From Lentisphaerota bacterium (lineage in GTDB: Bacteria; Verrucomicrobiota; Lentisphaeria; Oligosphaerales; JABHEG01): DNA of 64,000 bases. A program made the translations under genes and the position numbers. The stretch's first letter is position 1; each line of letters opens with the position of its first letter. The stretch covers positions 14,554 to 78,553 of the forward strand of contig JABHEG010000296.1 of assembly GCA_018676675.1 (NCBI GenBank), written 5' to 3'. The notes below the pieces were generated by a model. The model saw nothing but the letters and a program-made list of their open reading frames with translations. It had not been told where the DNA came from and did no database searches. Of this stretch, positions 56,634 to 64,000 are shown in pieces.

Positions 56634-59600
56634 GTGACATCCCCACACATTCTGTGCTGTGCTTTGTCAGTGGCCGCCGTGCTGCTCGCCAGAGCCGGTG
56701 CCCAGCCCACGGCAGCCCCCGTCCTCGAGGATGGTTTCGAGTCCGATCTGAGTCACTGGATCGTGGACCGCGGGAAGCAGCCGCTGGTCCTGTCTTCAGA
56801 TCGAGCTTTCGAAGGAAAGAAGTGCGCCTACTCCGGCCCCCCTGGGACAACGAGAGCGGGGAAGCGGGAATTCGGCCTGCACCTTATTGGCCGGGTCGAG
56901 CTTCGTTTCTATGACGATATGGCTCCGCGGAAACAACAGATGGCTGGAGTCTCAGCGGAAGGAGGTCTCCTTGGGATCGCCTGCCGGGGCGGGAAAACCT
57001 ATCAGTACCGGATTAGGCGCAACTACCTCCCAACCGACGTCGCCCGCTCGGAAGGCTGGCACCTCTTTGCCTGGGAAGCCAACGGAAGCGTGACTGAAGC
57101 CTTCATCGACGGGACCAAAGTCGCCGAAAACGCCGAACTGCCGCGTTTGGAGCGTGTCTTTGTGGGCAGTTTCTGGGACAATAGTACGGGCTGGTATGAC
57201 AGCATTCGAGTCTGGCGCAAGGCACCCGACAAGGCACCCCCTTTCACGGAAGCAGAACGCCTCTTCGCCGAAAACGCGCCGGAAGGCCGCGGAATTCGGG
57301 TTGTCAACAAACAGGGGGCATCAGAGAAAGCGATCAACCACTGGGACACCCCGGGACACGTCCTGGAGTGGGTCGTTGGCGTGCCGCAGCCAGGTCCCGG
57401 CATGCTGCTGGTCAAGTACGCAACCGCCAGTGCGTCCGCCATTCGCCTCTTGGGAGTCGGTGAGAAAGCGGTACGCGTCCGTTTCCCTGGAACAGGTGGC
57501 TGGGACAAGTGGGCATTCCAGGGAATCCCGCTGGAAACATCAGAACAGGTTGCCGTCGTTCGCATGAAGGCATCCGAGGGCAGCCTCAATGTGGATTGGC
57601 TGGCCGTTGCTCCAGCGCCATGTGAGCCATCCATCTATGGTCGAGCCCTCGACCTGTTTGTCCGCGAACGTCAACGCCTTGGCACCGTCTCCCGGATGCT
57701 CTCTCGAGCGGCCCAGGGAAGTGGCGTTCCCATTCCCGCACCCGTCGCAGTGCCTGAATTGCGGGAGAAACTCCCAGGACTCGAAGAACTCCAGCATCTT
57801 CCTGAGGCCATTCGACGGGCCGGAGATGCTCTGCGAGAGAGCATTGTAGTGGCAGAGCGCCCCAAGCTTGACAGCATTTTTCGCGTGCCTGAGTGGACGC
57901 TCCCCAAGCGTGAAACCGAGCTCTCTCAGGAGTATTTGAACAGGCTGGCAGCGTACCTCAATCTGACAGCACCGAGATTCCGTGACTGGCCGCATGCGCC
58001 TGGGTGCCGGTACCACAAACGCGAAGGTTCTCGGGAGTGGGATGTGCGCCAAAACGCAACGGTAGCGCTGGGGTACGCTGCCCTCCTACGTGGTCCCACC
58101 TCATCCGAGGCAGGAGGAGTGCCCGTGGCCCAACTGAATGCTGACCTAGCCGGCCTCCTACGCACCATCAGCATCACCCACAAGGTCAACTTCCTCCCCA
58201 CGCGCGACGGCGTCCCTTGGGGAGACCAGTGGCAGTCGGCGTTCTGGGCCGGGATCGCGGGACAAGCTGCCTGGTTGGTTTGGGCACGACTGCCTGACGA
58301 TGTGCGCCTGATGATCGCCCGCATGGTAGAACATGAGGCGAACCGCTTCAACGAACGGCGTCCGGACTCGGGCGTGGAACGGGACACCAAAGCAGAGGAA
58401 AATGCATGGAATTCCGAAGTCATCGCCCTGGCCGCCTGCATGTTTCCCGGTCACCCGAGCGCAGACAAGTGGCACGAGCGGGCCATCGTCTACATGCTCA
58501 ACTCTTTCAGTCGCCAGTCGGATCTGACGTCAGATCAAGTGGTAGATGGTCGGCCTCTGAAAGAGCGTCTCACGGCCGTGACAATCCACCCGGACTTCTC
58601 CCTGGAGAACCACAATCGAGTGCACCCCGACTATCTAACCACAGGGTCCCTGATGCTCCGTAATGCCCTGCTCTATCGCGCCGCGGGCCGACCCATTCCC
58701 GAAAGCACATTCTTCAACGTTCCCGAGACCTATGCTCTAGTGAAGGGAATCACGGCGACCAACGGGTCGTGTTTCTACGTTAATGGGCAGGACTGGTGGC
58801 CACACCGACACGATGTTCCATTGCTCATCTCGGGGCTGATGAGCGTCCTCAGGAACGACCCCGAGGCCGCTTTCATCGAACGCGCCACCCTCGCCTTCAC
58901 CGGCCGAATGCATGCCCGCTTCAAGGACGGAAGCATGTGGGACCGCCGTGAGTACAACTACGCCAATGCCGAAGAGGAGATGATCGCACGGTACGCCGAG
59001 CTCTACCTTTTCCATCGTACGTTCGGCGATGGTCCACCCCCAACACCAAAAGCCACCTTCCTCGCTGAACAGAGCGGAGTTCGAGTGTATGATCGAGGAG
59101 GCTTTGTTACTCATCGAACACCGACCAAATTCGTTTCTCTTGCCTGGAAGAACGGAGCGATGGGGCTCGTTTTTCCACGGGATGACACATGGTTCACCGC
59201 TCCATACGAACGCGGCCTGGTGGGAACGATCACCTGCAGAGGGAAAAATGACAGTCGCCCCGTCCTGATCGCCAGGAAGGTCGTTCCACAGCCGGATAGC
59301 TTTGCCGCCGCGGTCCGCCTCTCCCGCTGCGATGGCGCCGTCGAACAGCAACTGGCCGTCGTCTCCTTCCCCGAGGATCGCGTGGTCATCCTGGAGCAAC
59401 TCGTAGCTCTGGAGCCCATCGTCCTCGACCGGGTTGCCACCGGGGCGTTTGGCATCCTCAACGAAGATGCCCCCGGGATCTCTCCCAACCGACGCGTACT
59501 GCATCATGCCGGCGGCAGGACCAGTGTGGACGGCGCATGTGCTGCGAAGCGGACCCACATCCCGATCCCGTCCACCTGGATCAACATCGATGACCGGTTT

Positions 59601-59945
59601 GGCGTCGTAGCATCGGCGTCAAGACTGGCATATCTTGACCACAATGCCTATCAGAAATCCCGCCTGAGGGAGATACTCCATGCCAACGCCATCTCCGGCC
59701 CACAGCAGGTCAGCAAAGGCGATATCTTCAGCCAGTCGACATGGCTGGTCCTTCCGAATGCGACCGCCGAAACAACTCAAGGACAAACCATCGCCTTGCG
59801 CATCACCGGCGAGTTACCCGTTGCCTGCCTCTCGGACGGAACCGAAATCACGGCGAACTTCGCAGCAGAAACGAAGGAGGTCGTCGAGGTCGACGGCCAG
59901 GTCCATTCGCTTCGCCCTCTCGATGTTCTGATCACGGGACGGTGA
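56634..59945 (+). CDS. large secreted protein: LamG/ConA-like - CBM-like - (alpha/alpha)-toroid/heparinase-II/III-like region
   Basis: AGGAGAG SD + GTG. Signal peptide. LamG-like N-terminus (..GWHLFAWEANG..), a CBM-like segment (HWDTPGHVLEWVV...GGWDKWAF...LNVDWLAV), and ENHNRVHPDY in the central helical region. Confidence 0.7.
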   Translation: MTSPHILCCALSVAAVLLARAGAQPTAAPVLEDGFESDLSHWIVDRGKQPLVLSSDRAFEGKKCAYSGPPGTTRAGKREFGLHLIGRVELRFYDDMAPRKQQMAGVSAEGGLLGIACRGGKTYQYRIRRNYLPTDVARSEGWHLFAWEANGSVTEAFIDGTKVAENAELPRLERVFVGSFWDNSTGWYDSIRVWRKAPDKAPPFTEAERLFAENAPEGRGIRVVNKQGASEKAINHWDTPGHVLEWVVGVPQPGPGMLLVKYATASASAIRLLGVGEKAVRVRFPGTGGWDKWAFQGIPLETSEQVAVVRMKASEGSLNVDWLAVAPAPCEPSIYGRALDLFVRERQRLGTVSRMLSRAAQGSGVPIPAPVAVPELREKLPGLEELQHLPEAIRRAGDALRESIVVAERPKLDSIFRVPEWTLPKRETELSQEYLNRLAAYLNLTAPRFRDWPHAPGCRYHKREGSREWDVRQNATVALGYAALLRGPTSSEAGGVPVAQLNADLAGLLRTISITHKVNFLPTRDGVPWGDQWQSAFWAGIAGQAAWLVWARLPDDVRLMIARMVEHEANRFNERRPDSGVERDTKAEENAWNSEVIALAACMFPGHPSADKWHERAIVYMLNSFSRQSDLTSDQVVDGRPLKERLTAVTIHPDFSLENHNRVHPDYLTTGSLMLRNALLYRAAGRPIPESTFFNVPETYALVKGITATNGSCFYVNGQDWWPHRHDVPLLISGLMSVLRNDPEAAFIERATLAFTGRMHARFKDGSMWDRREYNYANAEEEMIARYAELYLFHRTFGDGPPPTPKATFLAEQSGVRVYDRGGFVTHRTPTKFVSLAWKNGAMGLVFPRDDTWFTAPYERGLVGTITCRGKNDSRPVLIARKVVPQPDSFAAAVRLSRCDGAVEQQLAVVSFPEDRVVILEQLVALEPIVLDRVATGAFGILNEDAPGISPNRRVLHHAGGRTSVDGACAAKRTHIPIPSTWINIDDRFGVVASASRLAYLDHNAYQKSRLREILHANAISGPQQVSKGDIFSQSTWLVLPNATAETTQGQTIALRITGELPVACLSDGTEITANFAAETKEVVEVDGQVHSLRPLDVLITGR

Positions 59946-59993: not shown

Positions 59994-60791
59994 ATGTCGG
60001 AGCCCTTGAAGACCGCCCAGTTCCAACGTCCCGACTGCACCAACCGTTACGCGCTGATCGCGTGTGAAGTCCTCTACCGCGAGTGTTGCCATTTAACGGC
60101 GACCGGGCGTCACACGATCGATCACTTCTGGCTGAGCCAGGGCCTTCATGACCTGGGACCGGAGAGGATGAGTGCCAGAATCCAGGAACAGATCGACTCC
60201 CTGCCCGGCGGCGTACACGATGCCGTCCTTCTCGGCTTCGGCTTGTGCAACAACGGCATCGCCGGGCTCAGAGCCGGAGAGGTCCCGCTGGTGGTGCCAA
60301 AAGCTCATGACTGTATCACGCTCTTCCTCGGTTCAAGGTGCCGGTACCGTGAGCTTTTTGATGGAGCTCCAGGCACCTACTACCTCACCACAGGGTGGCT
60401 GGAACGCGATGACAGTGTCGCCGAAGACGACGAGGGAGCAACGATACAGGATCAGCTTGGCCTGGGAATGTCCTGGGAAGAGCTCTGCGAGAAATATGGC
60501 GAAGAGAACGCAGCGTTTGTTGCCGAAACCATGGGCGACCTGACCCAGAACTACTCACGCTTGGTCTATATCCGGATGCCATTTGAGCAGGACTCACATT
60601 TTGAGGACACCGCCCGTGCCGGGGCTCAGGCCAAAGGGTGGGAATTCGCAAGCGTGCCGGGCGATCTTCGCCTCCTCAGCAACCTGCTGGCCGGACATTG
60701 GGATGAAGATTTTGTCGTCGCTCAGCCGGGCGAAACGCTCGCCCCATCCTACGATGAGCATGTCGTATGCCCCTGCTCCTGTGGAAACTGA
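59994..60791 (+). CDS. DUF1638 domain protein
   Basis: ALIACEVLYRE...GLHDLGPERM...DAVLLGFGLCNNG...PLVVPKAHDCITLFLGS...GTYYLTTGWLE matches my recollection of the DUF1638 pattern. Confidence 0.7.
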   Translation: MSEPLKTAQFQRPDCTNRYALIACEVLYRECCHLTATGRHTIDHFWLSQGLHDLGPERMSARIQEQIDSLPGGVHDAVLLGFGLCNNGIAGLRAGEVPLVVPKAHDCITLFLGSRCRYRELFDGAPGTYYLTTGWLERDDSVAEDDEGATIQDQLGLGMSWEELCEKYGEENAAFVAETMGDLTQNYSRLVYIRMPFEQDSHFEDTARAGAQAKGWEFASVPGDLRLLSNLLAGHWDEDFVVAQPGETLAPSYDEHVVCPCSCGN

Positions 60792-61072: not shown

Positions 61073-61828
61073 ATGGAGCAGTGCATGCGACTCCCGAAAA
61101 ACACTGGATTGAGAGACATTGTTCGATTTACGTTGATCGAGCTGCTTGTGGTCATAGCGATCATCGCTATTCTGGCCGCGATGCTGCTGCCGGCACTGCA
61201 ACAGGCCAAGGCACGCGCCAACCGAGCCAGTTGTGTCTCGAACCTTAAGCAGTTGACCCTCGGACAGAACATGTACCTTGAAGACTACAACGGATACTTC
61301 ATCCTCGGCGGAGGCGGCAGCTCCATGGGGAATCCCCGTTGGTGGAAACTGATGAAGGATTATGTCCCGTGGGAGAAGAACGGCGGGTACGGAGCCTATC
61401 AGTGCCCTGCCGATAACGATCGTAGGGCACGCAGCTACGCGGGTAACTACAACATTTCTCGCTGGCAGTTCTCGCGCACGATTAATGATATAGCCACATC
61501 CTCCGGCACATGCATCATGGTTGATGCATCTCAGTGTAGCACTGGCGTAACCAGCAACCACGACCCTCTGGCTTGGGAAGGAATGAGTACGGGCTCTTCA
61601 GACTGGCAGTTCACCCCGCCTTCCGACTGGACCGGCGGCGGAGCCGGCTCGTGGTACCTCAACACGAACGGCAATTACACACGTCGACCGATTGCCCGGC
61701 ATGACCGTGGCATGAACGTTTCGTTCGTTGACGGTCACGTGGACTGGATGACGGCCAAGGCGTTCCTCGGGCCGCTGCCCAATGGCTGGGCGTACGGATC
61801 CGGCGAGAACACATGGGATAACAAGTAG
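61073..61828 (+). CDS. DUF1559 / prepilin-type N-terminal cleavage-methylation domain protein (H-X9-DG)
   Basis: [24 protein letters not shown] class-III signal. C-terminal [19 protein letters not shown] (H-X9-DG). Confidence 0.9.
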
Positions 61829-61857
61829 CCCAAAGCCCCCCCTCCTTGACCTACAGA

Positions 61858-61889
61858 GGCTCCCGAGAAATCGGGGGCCTTTTTTTTTT
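61858..61889 (+). terminator. intrinsic terminator
   Basis: GGCTCCCGA-GAAA-TCGGGGGCC forms a 9-bp stem (one G-U pair) with a GNRA-like tetraloop, followed by T10. Confidence 0.8.
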
Positions 61890-62007: not shown

Positions 62008-62511
62008 TCAGTCGTTTTCCCAGTACGTGAGCAGCTTGCTGTGACAGCTGATCGGTCCGTCTGCGTAATCACTCCGGTAGGCCAGATACTCCTCCACGGT
62101 GCTGCATCCCGCCCAGCAGGCAAACTCGTCGGCCGCCAGCGCGGCTTCAGCGAGACAGGCAAACTCGACATAGTCCTGCGACCGCGCCAGGTCAATAGGA
62201 GCCATGGTCTGCGTGTCCCACGCTCTGACATTCATGCAGATCTCGTTCTCAGGCCCAAACCTGAACACTTTCGTGATGTGGGGAAAGGCTGTGATGAAGC
62301 CGATGCCCTCAACACCTTTAGCTTCTCCGAGGGCCTCAAGAAATGCCTCCTGCGTCAAGCCGCATGCTGCCCACACCGTACGACTCGGATCCGGGCGGCC
62401 GACAATGTCGACAAAATAGACCTTCAACGCCGTCTTCCCGTCCTTCCCTCGGAACAGGTCACGACCGGAGATCTTGGCGTGGTACGTATTGCAGGGCTTG
62501 ATCGGTTGCAT
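62008..62511 (-). CDS. hypothetical protein (167 aa)
   Basis: GGAGGAA SD + ATG at 62511. Good GC3 bias. Family not recognised. Divergent from the TGT-like gene. Confidence 0.6.
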   Translation of the reverse strand: MQPIKPCNTYHAKISGRDLFRGKDGKTALKVYFVDIVGRPDPSRTVWAACGLTQEAFLEALGEAKGVEGIGFITAFPHITKVFRFGPENEICMNVRAWDTQTMAPIDLARSQDYVEFACLAEAALAADEFACWAGCSTVEEYLAYRSDYADGPISCHSKLLTYWEND

Positions 62512-62765
62512 CAAGAATTCCTCCAGAAGGGAGCGACGGTTCGCAGTCGGGGTTCGGTCACAAAGAAGATACGATAGTGACCTTGCACGCAGTATCAAAG
62601 GCCCGGGTAGCACGTATTGGCCGACGCATATCGACACGGCCTGCGAAGCTCCTTACCCATGGCCCGGTGCAGATGCTCAGTGTCGGTGAAGAGTTTCGGG
62701 GAGTATGGTACCGCTCGGACCTGAACGCCAAATCCAGAAGCCCCCAAATCCTGAACCGCAACCCC

Positions 62766-63821
62766 ATGCCTACCACATCGTCCAGAGTACTCAAGACGCG
62801 CCGGCACACCATCCAACTGCCGGTCTTTCTGCCGGTGTACCAGCCCCACAAAGAGACGGCGACGCTACGTGAATGGCAGCGCGACTTCGGGATCGAGGGG
62901 TGCATTGTCAATGCCTACTTCCTCTACAAAGACCGAGAGATGCGCCAACGCTTCAAGGACGGTCTCGAGCTCCACGACTACATTGACTTCGATGGCCTGA
63001 TCATGACAGACTCGGGGGCCTTCCAGGGATTCAATCGGCCACTGCTTCTCGCAAACAAGAAGATCGTGGCGTTCCAGGACGCGATCGGAGCGGATGTCCT
63101 TTCTCCCCTCGACCTCGTGACTCCACCCGGTGACAAACGGACCGTCGCCGAACGGAAGCTCAATGCCACACAGAAGCGAATTCGGGAGGCAAAGCGCTAC
63201 TGCCACCAGGGAATGCTCGCCGGAGTGCAACAGGGCGGGCGCTTCCGGGACCTTCGACGCCGCAGCGTCGAGGAGATTATGGAAATCGGGGTCGACTACT
63301 TGGCGATTGGGAGCCTGGTACCGTTCTTCAACCGCAACCACAACCTGCAGTTTGTGGCGGACATCGTGCGAGAAGCCCGGACCATCGCCGGCCCTGAGAT
63401 GCCAATGCATATCTTCGGAGCGGGCGATCCCGTTGAGCTTCCTTTCTTCGCGGCGCTGGGAGCAGACATCTTCGATTCCTCATCATACGGGCACTATGCC
63501 GCTGGCGGTTGGTACATGACGCCCTACGGGGCTGTCAAGGACCACGCCACGCTCCAGTTGAGTGGGTTCAACTGTTCGTGTGCGATATGCGTCAACCGGG
63601 AGAGTTCCACCATTCCCGAGGCCCTCCCCGAAGCTGATTTGCGCCTCCACAACCTCTGCACCATTCTGAAGACCTTGGAACGAATCAGAACAGCCCAGGC
63701 GACCGGTGAGATTGAAGGCATGCTCACGGACATTCTGGAACGGCACGCAGTCTGTTTCCCCGGAAGCGATCTGCCGGAGTCGTGGGCGACGTGCAACACA
63801 CCCGACGTCGAGCGAACATAG
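62766..63821 (+). CDS. archaeal-type tRNA-guanine transglycosylase catalytic-domain homolog (DpdA/TgtA5-like), no PUA domain
   Basis: Collinear with the archaeosine TGT core: LPVFLPVY, FLYKD, DFDGLIMTDSGAFQ, FQDAIGADVLSPLDLVTPPGD, YLAIGSLVPF, MHIFGAGDP, GADIFDSSSY, and Zn site CSCAIC...LHNL. Confidence 0.8.
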   Translation: MPTTSSRVLKTRRHTIQLPVFLPVYQPHKETATLREWQRDFGIEGCIVNAYFLYKDREMRQRFKDGLELHDYIDFDGLIMTDSGAFQGFNRPLLLANKKIVAFQDAIGADVLSPLDLVTPPGDKRTVAERKLNATQKRIREAKRYCHQGMLAGVQQGGRFRDLRRRSVEEIMEIGVDYLAIGSLVPFFNRNHNLQFVADIVREARTIAGPEMPMHIFGAGDPVELPFFAALGADIFDSSSYGHYAAGGWYMTPYGAVKDHATLQLSGFNCSCAICVNRESSTIPEALPEADLRLHNLCTILKTLERIRTAQATGEIEGMLTDILERHAVCFPGSDLPESWATCNTPDVERT

Positions 63822-63836
63822 GCAGAAAGTCCGTCC

Positions 63837-64000
63837 ATGCCGGAACCGGATACATTGGCTACGATACGGGAGGCGCTGGCGCAGGGCGTCAGTGTGAACT
63901 ACCGCACGTCACCAGATGATGCCCTTCTCCTGGTCGATGAGATCCTGGCTCACTCCCCTGCCCTGCGGGAAGCAGCGAAACAGGAGCCCGATCCCCAGGC
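63837..64000 (+). CDS. hypothetical protein, N-terminal part only (runs off the window end)
   Basis: ATG 16 nt after the TGT-like stop. Frame is open to the window end. MPEPDTLATIREALAQGVSVNYRTSPDDALLLVDEIL. Family not recognised. Confidence 0.45.
   Translation, partial: MPEPDTLATIREALAQGVSVNYRTSPDDALLLVDEILAHSPALREAAKQEPDPQ

What the first reader, a model, noticed from the sequence alone, without database searches (positions are those of the whole stretch)
62008..64000. Archaeal-type, catalytic-core-only guanine transglycosylase (DpdA/TgtA5-like) with unknown partners, cut by the window edge
Seen: the 351-aa product of 62766-63821 aligns block by block with archaeosine TGT rather than with bacterial queuine Tgt. 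The blocks are DFDGLIMTDSGAFQ, LDLVTPPGD, HIFGAGDP, DIFDSSSY (both catalytic Asp positions kept) and the Zn motif CSCAIC...H. It ends right after the catalytic core, with no C1/C2/PUA tRNA-binding domains. Established: bacterial arcTGT-like paralogs lacking PUA (TgtA5/DpdA) insert preQ0 into DNA in the Dpd 7-deazaguanine modification/restriction islands (Thiaville et al. 2016; Hutinet et al. 2019). Inference: this may be the first gene of a nucleic-acid base-exchange or modification system. Its visible neighbours are an unrecognised divergent 167-aa protein and an unrecognised ORF starting 16 nt downstream. No queC/D/E, folE, dpdB/C or helicases are visible in the window, so the context differs from what I know of Dpd islands or lies beyond the edge.
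Basis: partly seen in the sequence, partly recalled or inferred. Interest (0 to 1): 0.7.

Follow-up and report, generated by a model that had tools for sequence, protein, structure and literature searches.

The report
Guanine-swapping enzyme paired with rRNA-type methyltransferase
The gene is a stripped-down archaeal-type guanine-exchange enzyme that, across many bacterial phyla, sits next to (and is twice fused to) a relative of the 16S rRNA methyltransferases that cause aminoglycoside resistance, which points to an undescribed RNA (probably ribosomal) 7-deazaguanine modification system and not to the DNA-modifying Dpd system.

Summary
Window 62766-63821(+) encodes a 351-aa TGT-family protein. 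It is closest to the catalytic half of archaeosine TGT, keeps both catalytic Asp and the Zn site, and has no C-terminal tRNA-binding domains.

The DpdA/Dpd reading is not supported. The DpdA HMM gives 26 bits against a cutoff of 200, and no dpdB/C or helicase genes occur in the extended contig or in the related loci.

The "unrecognised ORF" starting at 63837 is the 5' end of a 286-292-aa FmrO/Rmt-family SAM methyltransferase, the family of 16S rRNA G1405-N7 methylases.

- Pairing: 57 of 66 related loci from at least 10 phyla carry both genes. In 47 loci the order is TGT then MTase on the same strand.
- Fusion and co-inheritance: two MAGs fuse the two genes into one ORF, and their pairwise divergences co-vary (r = 0.89).
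- preQ0 link: queC/D/E lie beside the pair in about 20 loci.
- Actinomycetes: the pair lies inside a PKS/NRPS gene cluster.
- Parallel case: a second TGT lineage (bacterial-Tgt-like, altered pocket) is likewise coupled to Rmt-like genes, usually with rsmI.

I found no paper describing this pairing. Best reading: a two-enzyme RNA base-exchange module, most likely acting on 16S rRNA helix 44. The target and the mechanism are inferred, not shown.

The parts
62766..63821 (+). Gene for a 351-aa TGT-family guanine transglycosylase. It has the arcTGT-like catalytic (beta/alpha)8 core plus the Zn subdomain only.
   Evidence: - ORF and sequence.
- Pfam TGT 175 bits.
- NCBIfam TgtA 243 bits over model positions 15-331/441; Tgt 91.5; DpdA 26.2.
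- PDB 1iq8 170 bits.
- AF2 pLDDT 90.8, and Foldseek to 1iq8 with TMq 0.83.
- Invariant in 32 homologues: D82, D116, D237, C270, C272, C275, H295.
63837..64000 (+). First 54 codons of the partner gene, cut by the window edge. It is an FmrO/Rmt-family class-I SAM methyltransferase. The full gene is 286-292 aa, at L001 11072/11090-11950.
   Evidence: - The same contig in GCA_018664235.1 (L001) continues the ORF.
- Pfam FmrO PF07091: 69 bits, E 4.7e-19.
- NCBIfam Rmt_gen: 84 bits, below the 250 cutoff.
- A profile of the family hits only G1405 m7G methyltransferases in the PDB: Sgm 82.7, ArmA 76, RmtC 74.5 bits.
- AF2 pLDDT 93.5; the top 15 Foldseek hits are all RmtC/Sgm/RmtB/RmtF/ArmA.
63822..63836 (+). 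15-nt spacer between the TGT stop codon and the methyltransferase start codon. The two genes are presumably co-transcribed.
   Evidence: - Sequence.
- No terminator-like site between the genes in L001.
- The same TGT-then-MTase order on one strand occurs in 47 related loci. The median spacing of the tblastn hits is 35 nt.
62512..62765 (.). Upstream intergenic region shared with the divergent 167-aa ORF. It presumably holds the promoter of the TGT-MTase operon and contains the alternative in-frame GTG start at 62577.
   Evidence: - ORF list.
- Only one weak sigma-70-like match, on the minus strand, which is no more than chance.
- A function for this region is inferred, not shown.

Best explanation
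The ORF is the transglycosylase half of a conserved two-gene module that is sometimes fused into one gene. The two halves are a catalytic-core-only, arcTGT-like TGT and an Rmt/FmrO-like SAM methyltransferase.

Proposed mechanism:
- The methyltransferase half is homologous over its whole length to the enzymes that dock on the 30S subunit, flip G1405 out of 16S rRNA helix 44 and methylate its N7. I propose it supplies substrate recognition and base flipping, and methylates N7 of the target guanine.
- The TGT half has no RNA-binding domains of its own. I propose it replaces a guanine in that substrate with a 7-deazaguanine, most likely preQ0.
- The two steps may act on the same nucleotide. In that case the cationic m7G would be the marked, activated leaving group (G -> m7G -> preQ0).
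- The product would be a chemically stable 7-substituted base in the decoding centre. That would protect the ribosome from small molecules that bind there, as antibiotic resistance or as producer self-resistance.

Shown: the two genes, their conserved catalytic residues, their pairing, fusion and co-inheritance, and their linkage to queC/D/E.

Inferred, with my own probabilities: preQ0 as the inserted base (about 0.7), RNA as substrate (about 0.75), 16S h44/G1405 as the site (about 0.45), and m7G-activated exchange (about 0.25).
For: 1. Pairing.
- An HMM of the partner family finds it in 57 of 66 loci that carry this TGT family, from at least 10 phyla. Two more loci are cut by contig ends.
- Gene order: TGT->MTase on the same strand in 47 loci, MTase->TGT in 3, divergent in 3, convergent in 2.
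- Where the genes are not adjacent they can still co-occur. L020 and L169 lie on the same contig 9.4 kb apart; L036 and L083 come from the same MAG.

2. Fusion. L061 (684 aa) and L062 (729 aa) encode TgtA-like residues about 13-331 plus Rmt-like residues about 450-683 in one ORF.

3. Co-inheritance. Pairwise distances of TGT and MTase over 53 loci give Pearson r = 0.89, permutation p = 0.001.

4. Both enzymes look active.
- TGT: D82, D116, D237 and the Zn ligands are invariant.
- MTase: it keeps the equivalents of RmtC S107, D160 (SAM binding), Y60, K204 (positioning of G1405), R211 and R241 (h44 distortion). The mapping uses; the residue roles come from PMC10288597.

5. preQ0 supply. queC+queE+queD lie beside the pair in 8 actinomycete loci, and single que genes lie beside it in about 12 more. 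queF appears in only 3 loci.

6. Ribosome link.
- In Micromonospora, Krasilnikovia, Actinokineospora and Nocardia the pair sits inside a PKS/NRPS cluster. That is the classic position of FmrO-type self-resistance genes.
- THUMP-like RNA methyltransferases adjoin the TGT in Bacteroidota loci.

7. Independent parallel.
- 45 of 63 bacterial Rmt-like genes (Rmt_gen 224-226 bits in the two I scored) abut a different TGT lineage. That lineage is bacterial-Tgt-like, with pocket motif GGWPLD.
- 28 of these blocks also carry rsmI, the 16S C1402 (h44) methyltransferase.
Against: - No experiment and no direct computational test identifies the substrate. tRNA or DNA is not excluded.
- The partner scores below the NCBIfam Rmt cutoff (84 against 250). 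It differs from Rmt enzymes at H54 (Tyr here) and in the h44-inserting loop (RmtC M245 is Arg here, within an IERRE motif). It may therefore bind a different RNA site.
- The global fold match to Rmt structures is only moderate (TMq 0.50-0.57).
- No 7-deazaguanine has ever been reported in rRNA (my knowledge; all ten literature searches in the held library found nothing).
- Exchange of m7G by a TGT has no precedent.
- Seven loci with room lack an adjacent partner, and a Pyrinomonadaceae sub-clade has MazG in that position.
- Two partner-family genes with room on both sides have no TGT within their 8-kb block.
- No que genes lie in the 64-kb window or in L001.
- The tier-2 rsmI-rmt-tgt clustering could merely reflect co-regulated translation-apparatus genes.
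Confidence: 0.4

Rival explanations
1. tRNA-directed module. The TGT inserts preQ0 at a tRNA position (as arcTGT does at G15), and the Rmt-like enzyme methylates a guanine in the same tRNA. The pair would be a bacterial tRNA-stabilising or decoding modification pathway.
For: - The closest characterised relative of the TGT is a tRNA enzyme.
- Database names call it a tRNA-ribosyltransferase.
- THUMP-like methyltransferases, frequent in tRNA modification, are neighbours in Bacteroidota loci.
- queF lies directly upstream in three loci.
Against: - All tRNA-binding domains of arcTGT (C1, C2, PUA) are missing.
- No characterised FmrO/Rmt member acts on tRNA. In the PDB the partner family hits only 16S G1405 methyltransferases.
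- Placement inside an antibiotic-type gene cluster and the sparse, patchy distribution (65 loci found in a pattern-limited scan of 185,579 species genomes) are unusual for a tRNA housekeeping function.
Confidence: 0.2
2. DNA modification of the Dpd/DpdA kind. The TGT would insert preQ0 into genomic DNA as a restriction-modification or anti-restriction mark, with the methyltransferase as a DNA-acting accessory.
For: - Core-only arcTGT-like architecture, as in DpdA (review PMC5699537).
- que genes lie beside the TGT, as in about a quarter of dpd islands (PMC12235509).
- Some loci lie near transposases or PD-(D/E)XK genes.
Against: - DpdA HMMs score 26 and 22 bits, far below the cutoff.
- No dpdB, dpdC or dpdD-K genes recur in 66 loci.
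- Phage DpdA structures are poor matches.
- No PADLOC defence family matches the partner fragment or the 167-aa ORF.
- The partner belongs to an rRNA methyltransferase family.
Confidence: 0.07
3. Writer-eraser pair. The methyltransferase writes m7G on rRNA, and the TGT removes it by exchanging m7G back to guanine. This would allow a costly resistance mark to be reversed or proofread.
For: - Both enzymes address the same base.
- m7G is a good leaving group (chemistry, my knowledge).
- m7G1405 is known to carry fitness costs (PMC3923132, title and abstract listed).
- The window genome has no que genes near the pair.
Against: - queC/D/E are linked to the pair in about 20 loci. That includes actinomycetes, which generally lack queuosine, and argues that a 7-deazaguanine is the incoming base.
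- Co-transcription and fusion of a writer with its eraser would be a futile cycle.
Confidence: 0.08
4. Secondary-metabolite enzyme. In the actinomycete clusters, the TGT-like protein and the methyltransferase would build a 7-deazapurine-containing natural product and would not modify a nucleic acid.
For: - The pair, and in Actinokineospora also queCDE, lies inside a PKS/NRPS cluster.
- preQ0 is a known precursor of 7-deazapurine antibiotics (PMC5699537 abstract; PMC12235509).
Against: - Most loci, including the window, have no biosynthetic genes nearby.
- Known TGT-family enzymes act on polynucleotides or, for Cap10, on a protein (10.1101/2025.04.06.647259 abstract).
- The partner keeps the RNA-helix-distorting residues of Rmt enzymes.
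Confidence: 0.05

Closest known systems
Archaeosine tRNA-guanine transglycosylase (ArcTGT/TgtA; P. horikoshii 1iq8)
   Same: - Best sequence match (243 bits on TIGR00432; 170 bits to 1iq8) and best structural match (TMq 0.83, 30% identity).
- The same catalytic Asp pair, the same Zn site and a similar guanine/preQ0 pocket.
- preQ0 is the likely base.
   Different: - It lacks the C1, C2 and PUA tRNA-binding domains and falls below the family cutoff (243 against 350).
- It is bacterial.
- Pocket motifs are changed: GSLVPFF for GGVVPLL, and GAGDP for GAGHP.
- It is obligatorily paired with an Rmt-like methyltransferase.
DpdA (TgtA5) of the bacterial Dpd 7-deazaguanine DNA modification/restriction islands, and phage DpdA1-4
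   Same: - TGT-superfamily core without a PUA domain.
- It depends on a partner protein.
- It is often linked to preQ0 biosynthesis genes (PMC5699537).
   Different: - Only 26 bits on the DpdA model (cutoff 200).
- No DpdB or DpdC.
- Viral DpdA-like structures reach TMq <= 0.61.
- The partner is an rRNA-type methyltransferase, not a ParB-like ATPase.
Rmt/Arm/Sgm/FmrO 16S rRNA (guanine1405-N7) methyltransferases (aminoglycoside resistance). This is the family of the partner gene.
   Same: - Pfam FmrO above threshold.
- These are the only PDB relatives, by sequence profile and by fold.
- Shared motifs H-x-S-T-x-E-R, D-x-G-C-G-x-x-P and LLLK...RQ.
- Equivalents of RmtC Y60, S107, D160, K204, R211 and R241 are kept.
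- It occurs inside antibiotic gene clusters.
   Different: - 84 bits against the 250 cutoff of the Rmt equivalog model.
- RmtC H54 is Tyr here, and M245 is Arg within a different loop (IERRE).
- The N-terminal domain is longer.
- It nearly always comes with a TGT, which no described Rmt enzyme does.
Cap9-Cap10 of type IV CBASS (QueC-like plus TGT-like; protein deazaguanylation)
   Same: A TGT-fold enzyme repurposed away from tRNA and working with 7-deazaguanine chemistry (10.1101/2025.04.06.647259 abstract).
   Different: - Only 21 bits to Cap10 (9ntn).
- No CD-NTase or effector genes nearby.
- Where QueC is linked, it comes with QueD and QueE, which is a true preQ0 pathway.
Parallel 'tier-2' module found here: rsmI + Rmt-like + bacterial-Tgt-like paralogue (Chloroflexota, Bacillota, Binatia and others)
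   Same: - The same pairing logic: an Rmt-family methyltransferase abutting a TGT-family enzyme on the same strand, often with overlapping stop and start codons.
- The TGT pocket motif is altered relative to the canonical enzyme.
   Different: - The TGT comes from the bacterial Tgt lineage (TIGR00430 310-322 bits).
- The methyltransferase is much closer to true Rmt enzymes (224-226 bits).
- rsmI is usually present.
- No que genes lie in the blocks.

Membership tests
TGT superfamily (PF01702 / TIGR00449) | HMM score above the curated threshold, and a (beta/alpha)8 barrel fold | tested here: met
   - Pfam 175.2 bits (cutoff 26.3).
- tgt_general 162.6 bits (cutoff 47.6).
- AF2 pLDDT 90.8; Foldseek to TGT structures with E down to 7.5e-26.
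TGT superfamily (PF01702 / TIGR00449) | Catalytic aspartates and the CxCxxC...H zinc site | tested here: met
   D82, D116, D237, C270, C272, C275 and H295 are invariant in 32 family members. D82 and D237 align with P. horikoshii D95 and D249 (residue roles from PMC5699537).
Archaeosine TGT (TgtA, TIGR00432) | Equivalog HMM score above the cutoff | tested here: not met
   243.2 bits against a cutoff of 350. The match covers model positions 15-331 of 441.
Archaeosine TGT (TgtA, TIGR00432) | C-terminal C1/C2/C3(PUA) tRNA-binding domains | tested here: not met
   The protein ends at residue 351. Foldseek covers only about half of 1iq8 (TMt 0.52; 352 aligned columns of 577 residues).
Archaeosine TGT (TgtA, TIGR00432) | Exchanges G15 of tRNA for preQ0 | not testable with these tools
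   This needs biochemistry. Only the linkage to queC/D/E in related loci bears on the base.
Bacterial queuine/preQ1 Tgt (TIGR00430) | Equivalog HMM score above the cutoff | tested here: not met
   91.5 bits against a cutoff of 306.75. PDB bacterial Tgt chains score 52-62 bits.
DpdA (NF041059; PADLOC DpdA) | HMM score above the cutoff | tested here: not met
   26.2 bits against a cutoff of 200. PADLOC DpdA gives 21.8 bits over about 100 residues.
DpdA (NF041059; PADLOC DpdA) | Genomic association with dpdB/dpdC (and dpdD-K) | tested here: not met
   - The extended contig L001 shows FmrO-like, a 449-aa unknown, and melibiase.
- Clustering of all ORFs in 66 loci finds only the FmrO-like gene and que genes recurring.
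DpdA (NF041059; PADLOC DpdA) | Inserts preQ0 into DNA | not testable with these tools
   This needs LC-MS of genomic DNA.
Cap10 (type IV CBASS TGT-like) | Sequence similarity to Cap10 and a CBASS gene context | tested here: not met
   - 21.3 bits to 9ntn over about 65 residues.
- PADLOC 'TGT' gives 32 bits over 45 residues.
- No CD-NTase context.
FmrO/Rmt 16S rRNA m7G1405 methyltransferases (partner gene) | Pfam PF07091 above the gathering score, and an Rmt-like fold | tested here: met
   - 69.2 bits against a cutoff of 27.
- All 28 database homologues carry PF07091.
- The top 15 Foldseek PDB hits are RmtC, Sgm, RmtB, RmtF and ArmA, with E about 1e-11 to 8e-9.
FmrO/Rmt 16S rRNA m7G1405 methyltransferases (partner gene) | NCBIfam Rmt equivalog cutoff (NF000466) | tested here: not met
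   84 bits against a cutoff of 250.
FmrO/Rmt 16S rRNA m7G1405 methyltransferases (partner gene) | SAM-binding and G1405-positioning residues (RmtC Y60, S107, D160, K204, R211, R241) | tested here: met
   The equivalents are Y80, S119, D171, K220, R227 and R256. All are invariant or nearly so in 25 partners, except R256, which is Arg only in the consensus. Residue roles come from PMC10288597.
FmrO/Rmt 16S rRNA m7G1405 methyltransferases (partner gene) | Near-universal His54 and the hydrophobic Met245 of the h44-inserting loop | tested here: not met
   His54 aligns with the invariant Tyr74. Met245 aligns with Arg261 within a family-specific I-E-R-R-E motif.
FmrO/Rmt 16S rRNA m7G1405 methyltransferases (partner gene) | Methylates N7 of G1405 in 30S subunits and confers aminoglycoside resistance | not testable with these tools
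   This needs MIC assays and rRNA mapping.

The most novel reading that the evidence does not exclude
Bacteria from many phyla would install a 7-deazaguanine (preQ0) in 16S rRNA helix 44 with a two-enzyme machine. An Rmt-like methyltransferase first makes m7G, and a core-only TGT then uses that cationic base as the leaving group for base exchange. This would be the first 7-deazaguanine found in ribosomal RNA, the first methylation-activated transglycosylation, and a new, transferable mechanism of ribosome-targeted antibiotic resistance or producer self-resistance.
Probability: 0.2. Interest if true: 0.92.

Novelty: new variant of a known kind. Interest (0 to 1): 0.8.

Why it matters
TGT enzymes are known to put 7-deazaguanines into tRNA (queuosine, archaeosine), into DNA (Dpd, phages) and onto a protein (CBASS Cap10). 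Rmt/Arm methyltransferases are among the most worrying aminoglycoside-resistance determinants, and their environmental origin and relatives are poorly understood.

An obligatory, sometimes fused, pairing of the two families was not described in any paper I could search. The pairing is found in two independent TGT lineages, with preQ0 genes alongside, and inside antibiotic gene clusters.

If the target is the ribosome, this would add a fourth substrate class for TGT chemistry and a new kind of rRNA modification and resistance mechanism. It would also explain what a large group of "16S rRNA methyltransferase" and "tRNA-guanine transglycosylase" annotations in metagenomes really are.

It is directly testable, because two genes (with or without queCDE) can be expressed in E. 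coli.

Tried and rejected
- **DpdA/Dpd island.** Rejected on HMM scores, on context and on structure comparison with viral DpdA-like proteins.
- **Known defence system.** PADLOC gave only fragmentary TGT/DpdA hits and nothing for the neighbours.
- **167-aa divergent ORF and 449-aa downstream ORF as partners.** Neither has a Pfam, NCBIfam or PDB relative. Neither is found in any of the 65 other loci. I treat them as unrelated neighbours, although the 449-aa gene may be co-transcribed in this genome.
- **Phage dPreQ1 methyltransferase DpdM as a precedent for the partner.** DpdM is DUF3109, which is unrelated.
- **Horizontal-transfer island signal in this genome.** GC is flat at 0.57-0.63.
- **Locus search with the partner alignment.** The search for related loci failed because the alignment is too divergent. 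I replaced it with a degenerate DNA motif scan.
- **Apparent rsmI-Rmt-Tgt fusion ORF in L101.** Dismissed as unreliable, because an Arg-rich stretch between the domains looks out of frame.
- **First ORF clustering.** I redid it without the overlap filter.
- **Literature.** Ten full-text searches found nothing on TGT with FmrO/Rmt, on preQ0 with G1405, or on 7-deazaguanine in rRNA. Subscription-only papers were not searchable.


Full report
**1.

- It is a TGT-superfamily protein: Pfam PF01702, 175 bits.
- Among NCBI's curated models it is closest to archaeosine TGT. TgtA scores 243 bits but matches only model positions 15-331 of 441, and it stays below the 350-bit cutoff. Bacterial Tgt scores 91.5 bits and DpdA scores 26 bits against a cutoff of 200.
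- The best solved structure by sequence is P. horikoshii ArcTGT at 170 bits.
- An AlphaFold2 model built on 32 homologues is confident (pLDDT 90.8). It superposes on the catalytic half of ArcTGT (TMq 0.83, TMt 0.52). Bacterial Tgt gives TMq 0.73-0.76. Viral DpdA-like models give TMq of 0.61 or less.
- D82, D116, D237 and the Zn ligands C270, C272, C275 and H295 are invariant in the family.

So "archaeal-type, catalytic-core-only" is correct. "DpdA/TgtA5-like" is not.

**2. What lies beyond the window edge.**

The identical gene is on NCBI contig JABJOW010000297.1 of GCA_018664235.1, which I fetched as L001. That contig extends 7.3 kb further.
- The ORF that starts at window 63837, after a 15-nt spacer, continues to 286-292 aa.
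- It is an FmrO/Rmt-family methyltransferase: Pfam PF07091 at 69 bits, and NCBIfam Rmt_gen at 84 bits against a cutoff of 250.
- Next come a 449-aa protein with no relatives and a convergent melibiase gene.
- There are no dpd genes, no helicases and no que genes.
- No terminator-like site separates the TGT, methyltransferase and 449-aa genes.

**3. The pair is a conserved module.**

A protein search found 541 relatives. The top 120 are all roughly 310-415 aa (typically about 350), TGT-only, and 53-86% identical although they come from unrelated phyla.

A scan of one genome per species returned 65 loci. The taxa are:
- Lentisphaerota, Bacteroidota, Acidobacteriota, Omnitrophota, Planctomycetota and Sumerlaeota;
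- Actinomycetota, Alpha-, Gamma- and "Delta"-proteobacteria;
- Myxococcota and Chloroflexaceae.

The partner is present in most of them.
- An HMM of the partner finds it in 57 of the 66 loci. Two more loci are truncated.
- Gene order is TGT->MTase on one strand in 47 loci, MTase->TGT in 3, divergent in 3 and convergent in 2.
- Clustering all ORFs shows that nothing else is core. The 167-aa and 449-aa neighbours of the window gene occur nowhere else.
- Two apparent exceptions are resolved at genome level. L020 and L169 are the same contig, with the genes 9.4 kb apart. L036 and L083 come from the same MAG.

Three further lines tie the genes together.
- In two MAGs the genes are fused. L061 is 684 aa and L062 is 729 aa, each with a TgtA-like N-half, a Ser/Pro-rich linker (most evident in L062) and an Rmt-like C-half.
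- The pairwise divergences of the two proteins are tightly correlated (r = 0.89, permutation p = 0.001).
- The distribution is sparse and patchy, and identity across phyla is high. I read this as a module that moves as a unit.

**4. Both halves look catalytically competent.**

For the TGT, see section 1.

For the partner, a 25-sequence profile hits only the G1405-N7 methyltransferases in the PDB: Sgm, ArmA, RmtC, RmtF and RmtB. A confident AF2 model (pLDDT 93.5) has the same enzymes as its top 15 structural matches, although the global TM is moderate at 0.46-0.57.

I mapped the profile alignment onto the RmtC-30S cryo-EM study (PMC10288597).
- Kept: the SAM ligands (S107->S119, D160->D171), the two residues that position flipped G1405 (Y60->Y80, K204->K220), and two Arg that stabilise the distorted helix 44 (R211->R227, R241->R256).
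- Changed: H54 is Tyr74, and the loop residue M245 is Arg within a family-specific IERRE motif.

I infer that the partner is an active guanine-N7-type methyltransferase that flips a base out of structured RNA. Whether it docks exactly as RmtC does is open.

**5. Link to 7-deazaguanine.**

- queC, queE and queD lie together next to the pair in eight actinomycete loci.
- Single que genes lie next to it in about twelve more loci.
- queF (preQ0 -> preQ1) is present in only three loci.

Actinomycetes generally lack queuosine (my knowledge). A private queCDE set without queF therefore points to preQ0 as the base that is inserted. It also argues against the idea that the methyltransferase methylates a preQ1 amine, as phage DpdM does. 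DpdM is in any case an unrelated DUF3109 protein.

**6. Hints at the substrate.**

- (a) The only characterised relatives of the partner act on 16S rRNA helix 44.
- (b) In Micromonospora, Krasilnikovia, Actinokineospora and Nocardia the pair sits inside a PKS/NRPS cluster. The cluster encodes an amino-acid-ACP ligase, an acyl-CoA dehydrogenase, a 3-hydroxyacyl-CoA dehydrogenase, an amidinotransferase-like protein, a carbamoyltransferase and 2OG oxygenases. That is where FmrO-type genes serve as producer self-resistance (established knowledge).
- (c) THUMP-like RNA methyltransferases adjoin the TGT in Bacteroidota loci.
- (d) A degenerate DNA motif scan for the partner's H-x-S-T-x-E-R ... This uncovered a parallel system.
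  - 63 bacterial Rmt-like genes were found. The two I scored are much closer to real Rmt enzymes than the tier-1 partner is (224-226 bits against a cutoff of 250).
  - 45 of the 63 abut a TGT-family gene on the same strand, often with 3-10-nt overlaps. This TGT is of a different lineage: bacterial-Tgt-like, TIGR00430 310-322 bits, with pocket motif GGWPLD where canonical Tgt has GGL(A/S)VGE (my knowledge for the canonical motif).
  - 28 of these blocks also carry rsmI, the 16S rRNA C1402 2'-O-methyltransferase that acts on the same helix. It is confirmed by TIGR00096 at 194 bits against a cutoff of 168.
  - Archaeal Rmt-like genes (43 blocks) show no such neighbour.

Two independent TGT lineages coupled to the same methyltransferase family make a chance association very unlikely. 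The rsmI link points at helix 44.

**7. Mechanism.**

What is shown is a genetically and physically coupled pair: a base-exchange enzyme and a guanine-N7-type methyltransferase, plus a preQ0 supply.

My preferred model is as follows.
- The methyltransferase half docks on the RNA and flips the target guanine.
- The TGT half, which has no RNA-binding domains of its own, exchanges a guanine there for preQ0.
- Canonical TGT chemistry needs N7 to make guanine leave, and 7-deazaguanine insertion is irreversible for that reason (my knowledge). N7-methylation would therefore be a permanent activation and an address label.
- In that case the sequence is G -> m7G -> preQ0.

The family-specific aromatic and acidic changes around the 7-substituent pocket are compatible with binding a cationic m7G, but I did not test this. 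The changes are GSLVPFF and GAGDP here, and Trp in the tier-2 motif.

Alternatives:
- The two enzymes mark neighbouring guanines.
- They form a writer-eraser pair.
- The substrate is tRNA or DNA.

None of these can be excluded computationally. I give them about 0.2 (tRNA), 0.08 (writer-eraser), 0.07 (DNA) and 0.05 (metabolite biosynthesis).

**8. Exceptions and limits.**

- Seven loci with room lack an adjacent partner. Two of these have other class-I methyltransferases next to the TGT. A Pyrinomonadaceae sub-clade has a 96-aa MazG gene overlapping the TGT start.
- Two partner-family genes with room on both sides have no TGT within their 8-kb block.
- The window genome shows no que genes within 64 kb, and its GC content gives no island signal.

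**9. Novelty.**

Ten full-text searches found no paper that links TGT with FmrO/Rmt enzymes, preQ0 with G1405, or 7-deazaguanine with rRNA. The reviews of the TGT/Dpd field that I read do not mention such a clade. Public annotations call the two proteins "tRNA-guanine transglycosylase" or "7-cyano-7-deazaguanine tRNA-ribosyltransferase", and "16S rRNA (guanine(1405)-N(7))-methyltransferase".

I rate this a new variant of known kinds: TGT base exchange and Rmt-type methylation. It has a realistic chance of being a new class of rRNA modification and resistance.

Noticed in passing
L095 653-3391; L162 5009-7690; L180 1-2586; about 45 blocks among L071-L189: There is a second, apparently undescribed conserved operon in Chloroflexota, Limnocylindria, Bacillota, Binatia, Gemmatimonadota and others. 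It contains rsmI (16S C1402 methyltransferase), an Rmt-like methyltransferase (Rmt_gen 224-226 bits) and a bacterial-Tgt paralogue with pocket motif GGWPLD. Stop and start codons often overlap.
   Followed up: partly
L071, L077, L094 1384-2178, L122 6664-7539 and about 40 further blocks: Rmt/FmrO-like methyltransferase genes (Rmt_gen 127-138 bits in the two I scored) are common in DPANN archaea (Woesearchaeota, Nanoarchaeota) and in Methanosarcinales. No TGT gene lies in the same 8-kb block.
   Followed up: partly
L067 1-21026 (Micromonospora rifamycinica); also L015, L016, L022, L025, L026, L038, L055: An actinomycete PKS/NRPS gene cluster carries the TGT + FmrO-like pair, and in Actinokineospora also queD-queE-queC. 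The cluster has aminomalonyl/hydroxymalonyl-ACP-type genes, an amidinotransferase-like gene, a carbamoyltransferase and two 2OG oxygenases. Its product is unknown to me.
   Followed up: partly
L004 5663-6115 and L190 9714-10004: A sub-clade variant exists in Pyrinomonadaceae-type Acidobacteriota. A small MazG-family NTP pyrophosphohydrolase gene overlaps the TGT start by 4 nt, and no FmrO-like gene is adjacent.
   Followed up: partly
L005 2392-3609; L039 9922-11112: A THUMP-like/PG_1098 class-I methyltransferase lies next to the TGT (or TGT-FmrO) genes in Bacteroidota. In L039 and L059, queF lies directly upstream of the TGT gene (overlapping its start in L039).
   Followed up: partly
window 61855-61882: A strong bidirectional intrinsic-terminator-like hairpin (12-bp stem, then a T-run) lies between the DUF1559 gene and the convergent 167-aa ORF.
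   Followed up: partly
window 61073-61828, 59994-60791, 56634-59945: Three upstream genes are worth noting. One is a prepilin-type DUF1559 protein with a sub-threshold H-X9-DG hit, typical of Planctomycetota/Verrucomicrobiota/Lentisphaerota. One is a DUF1638 protein. One is a 1103-aa ORF with no Pfam hit. The closest TGT relative with a taxon label is from Victivallales (66% identity).
   Followed up: partly
window 62008-62511 (-); L001 11976-13325 (+): The 167-aa divergent ORF and the 449-aa ORF downstream of the methyltransferase have no Pfam or NCBIfam relatives (the 449-aa ORF also has no meaningful PDB relative). Neither is conserved next to the TGT in any other locus. The 449-aa gene may still be co-transcribed with the pair in this genome.
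   Followed up: partly
L069 1-9000: In one metagenomic contig, the module (queC, a class-III aminotransferase, TGT, FmrO-like and a cytidylyltransferase-like gene) is preceded by five transposase/integrase genes. This suggests mobility.
   Followed up: no
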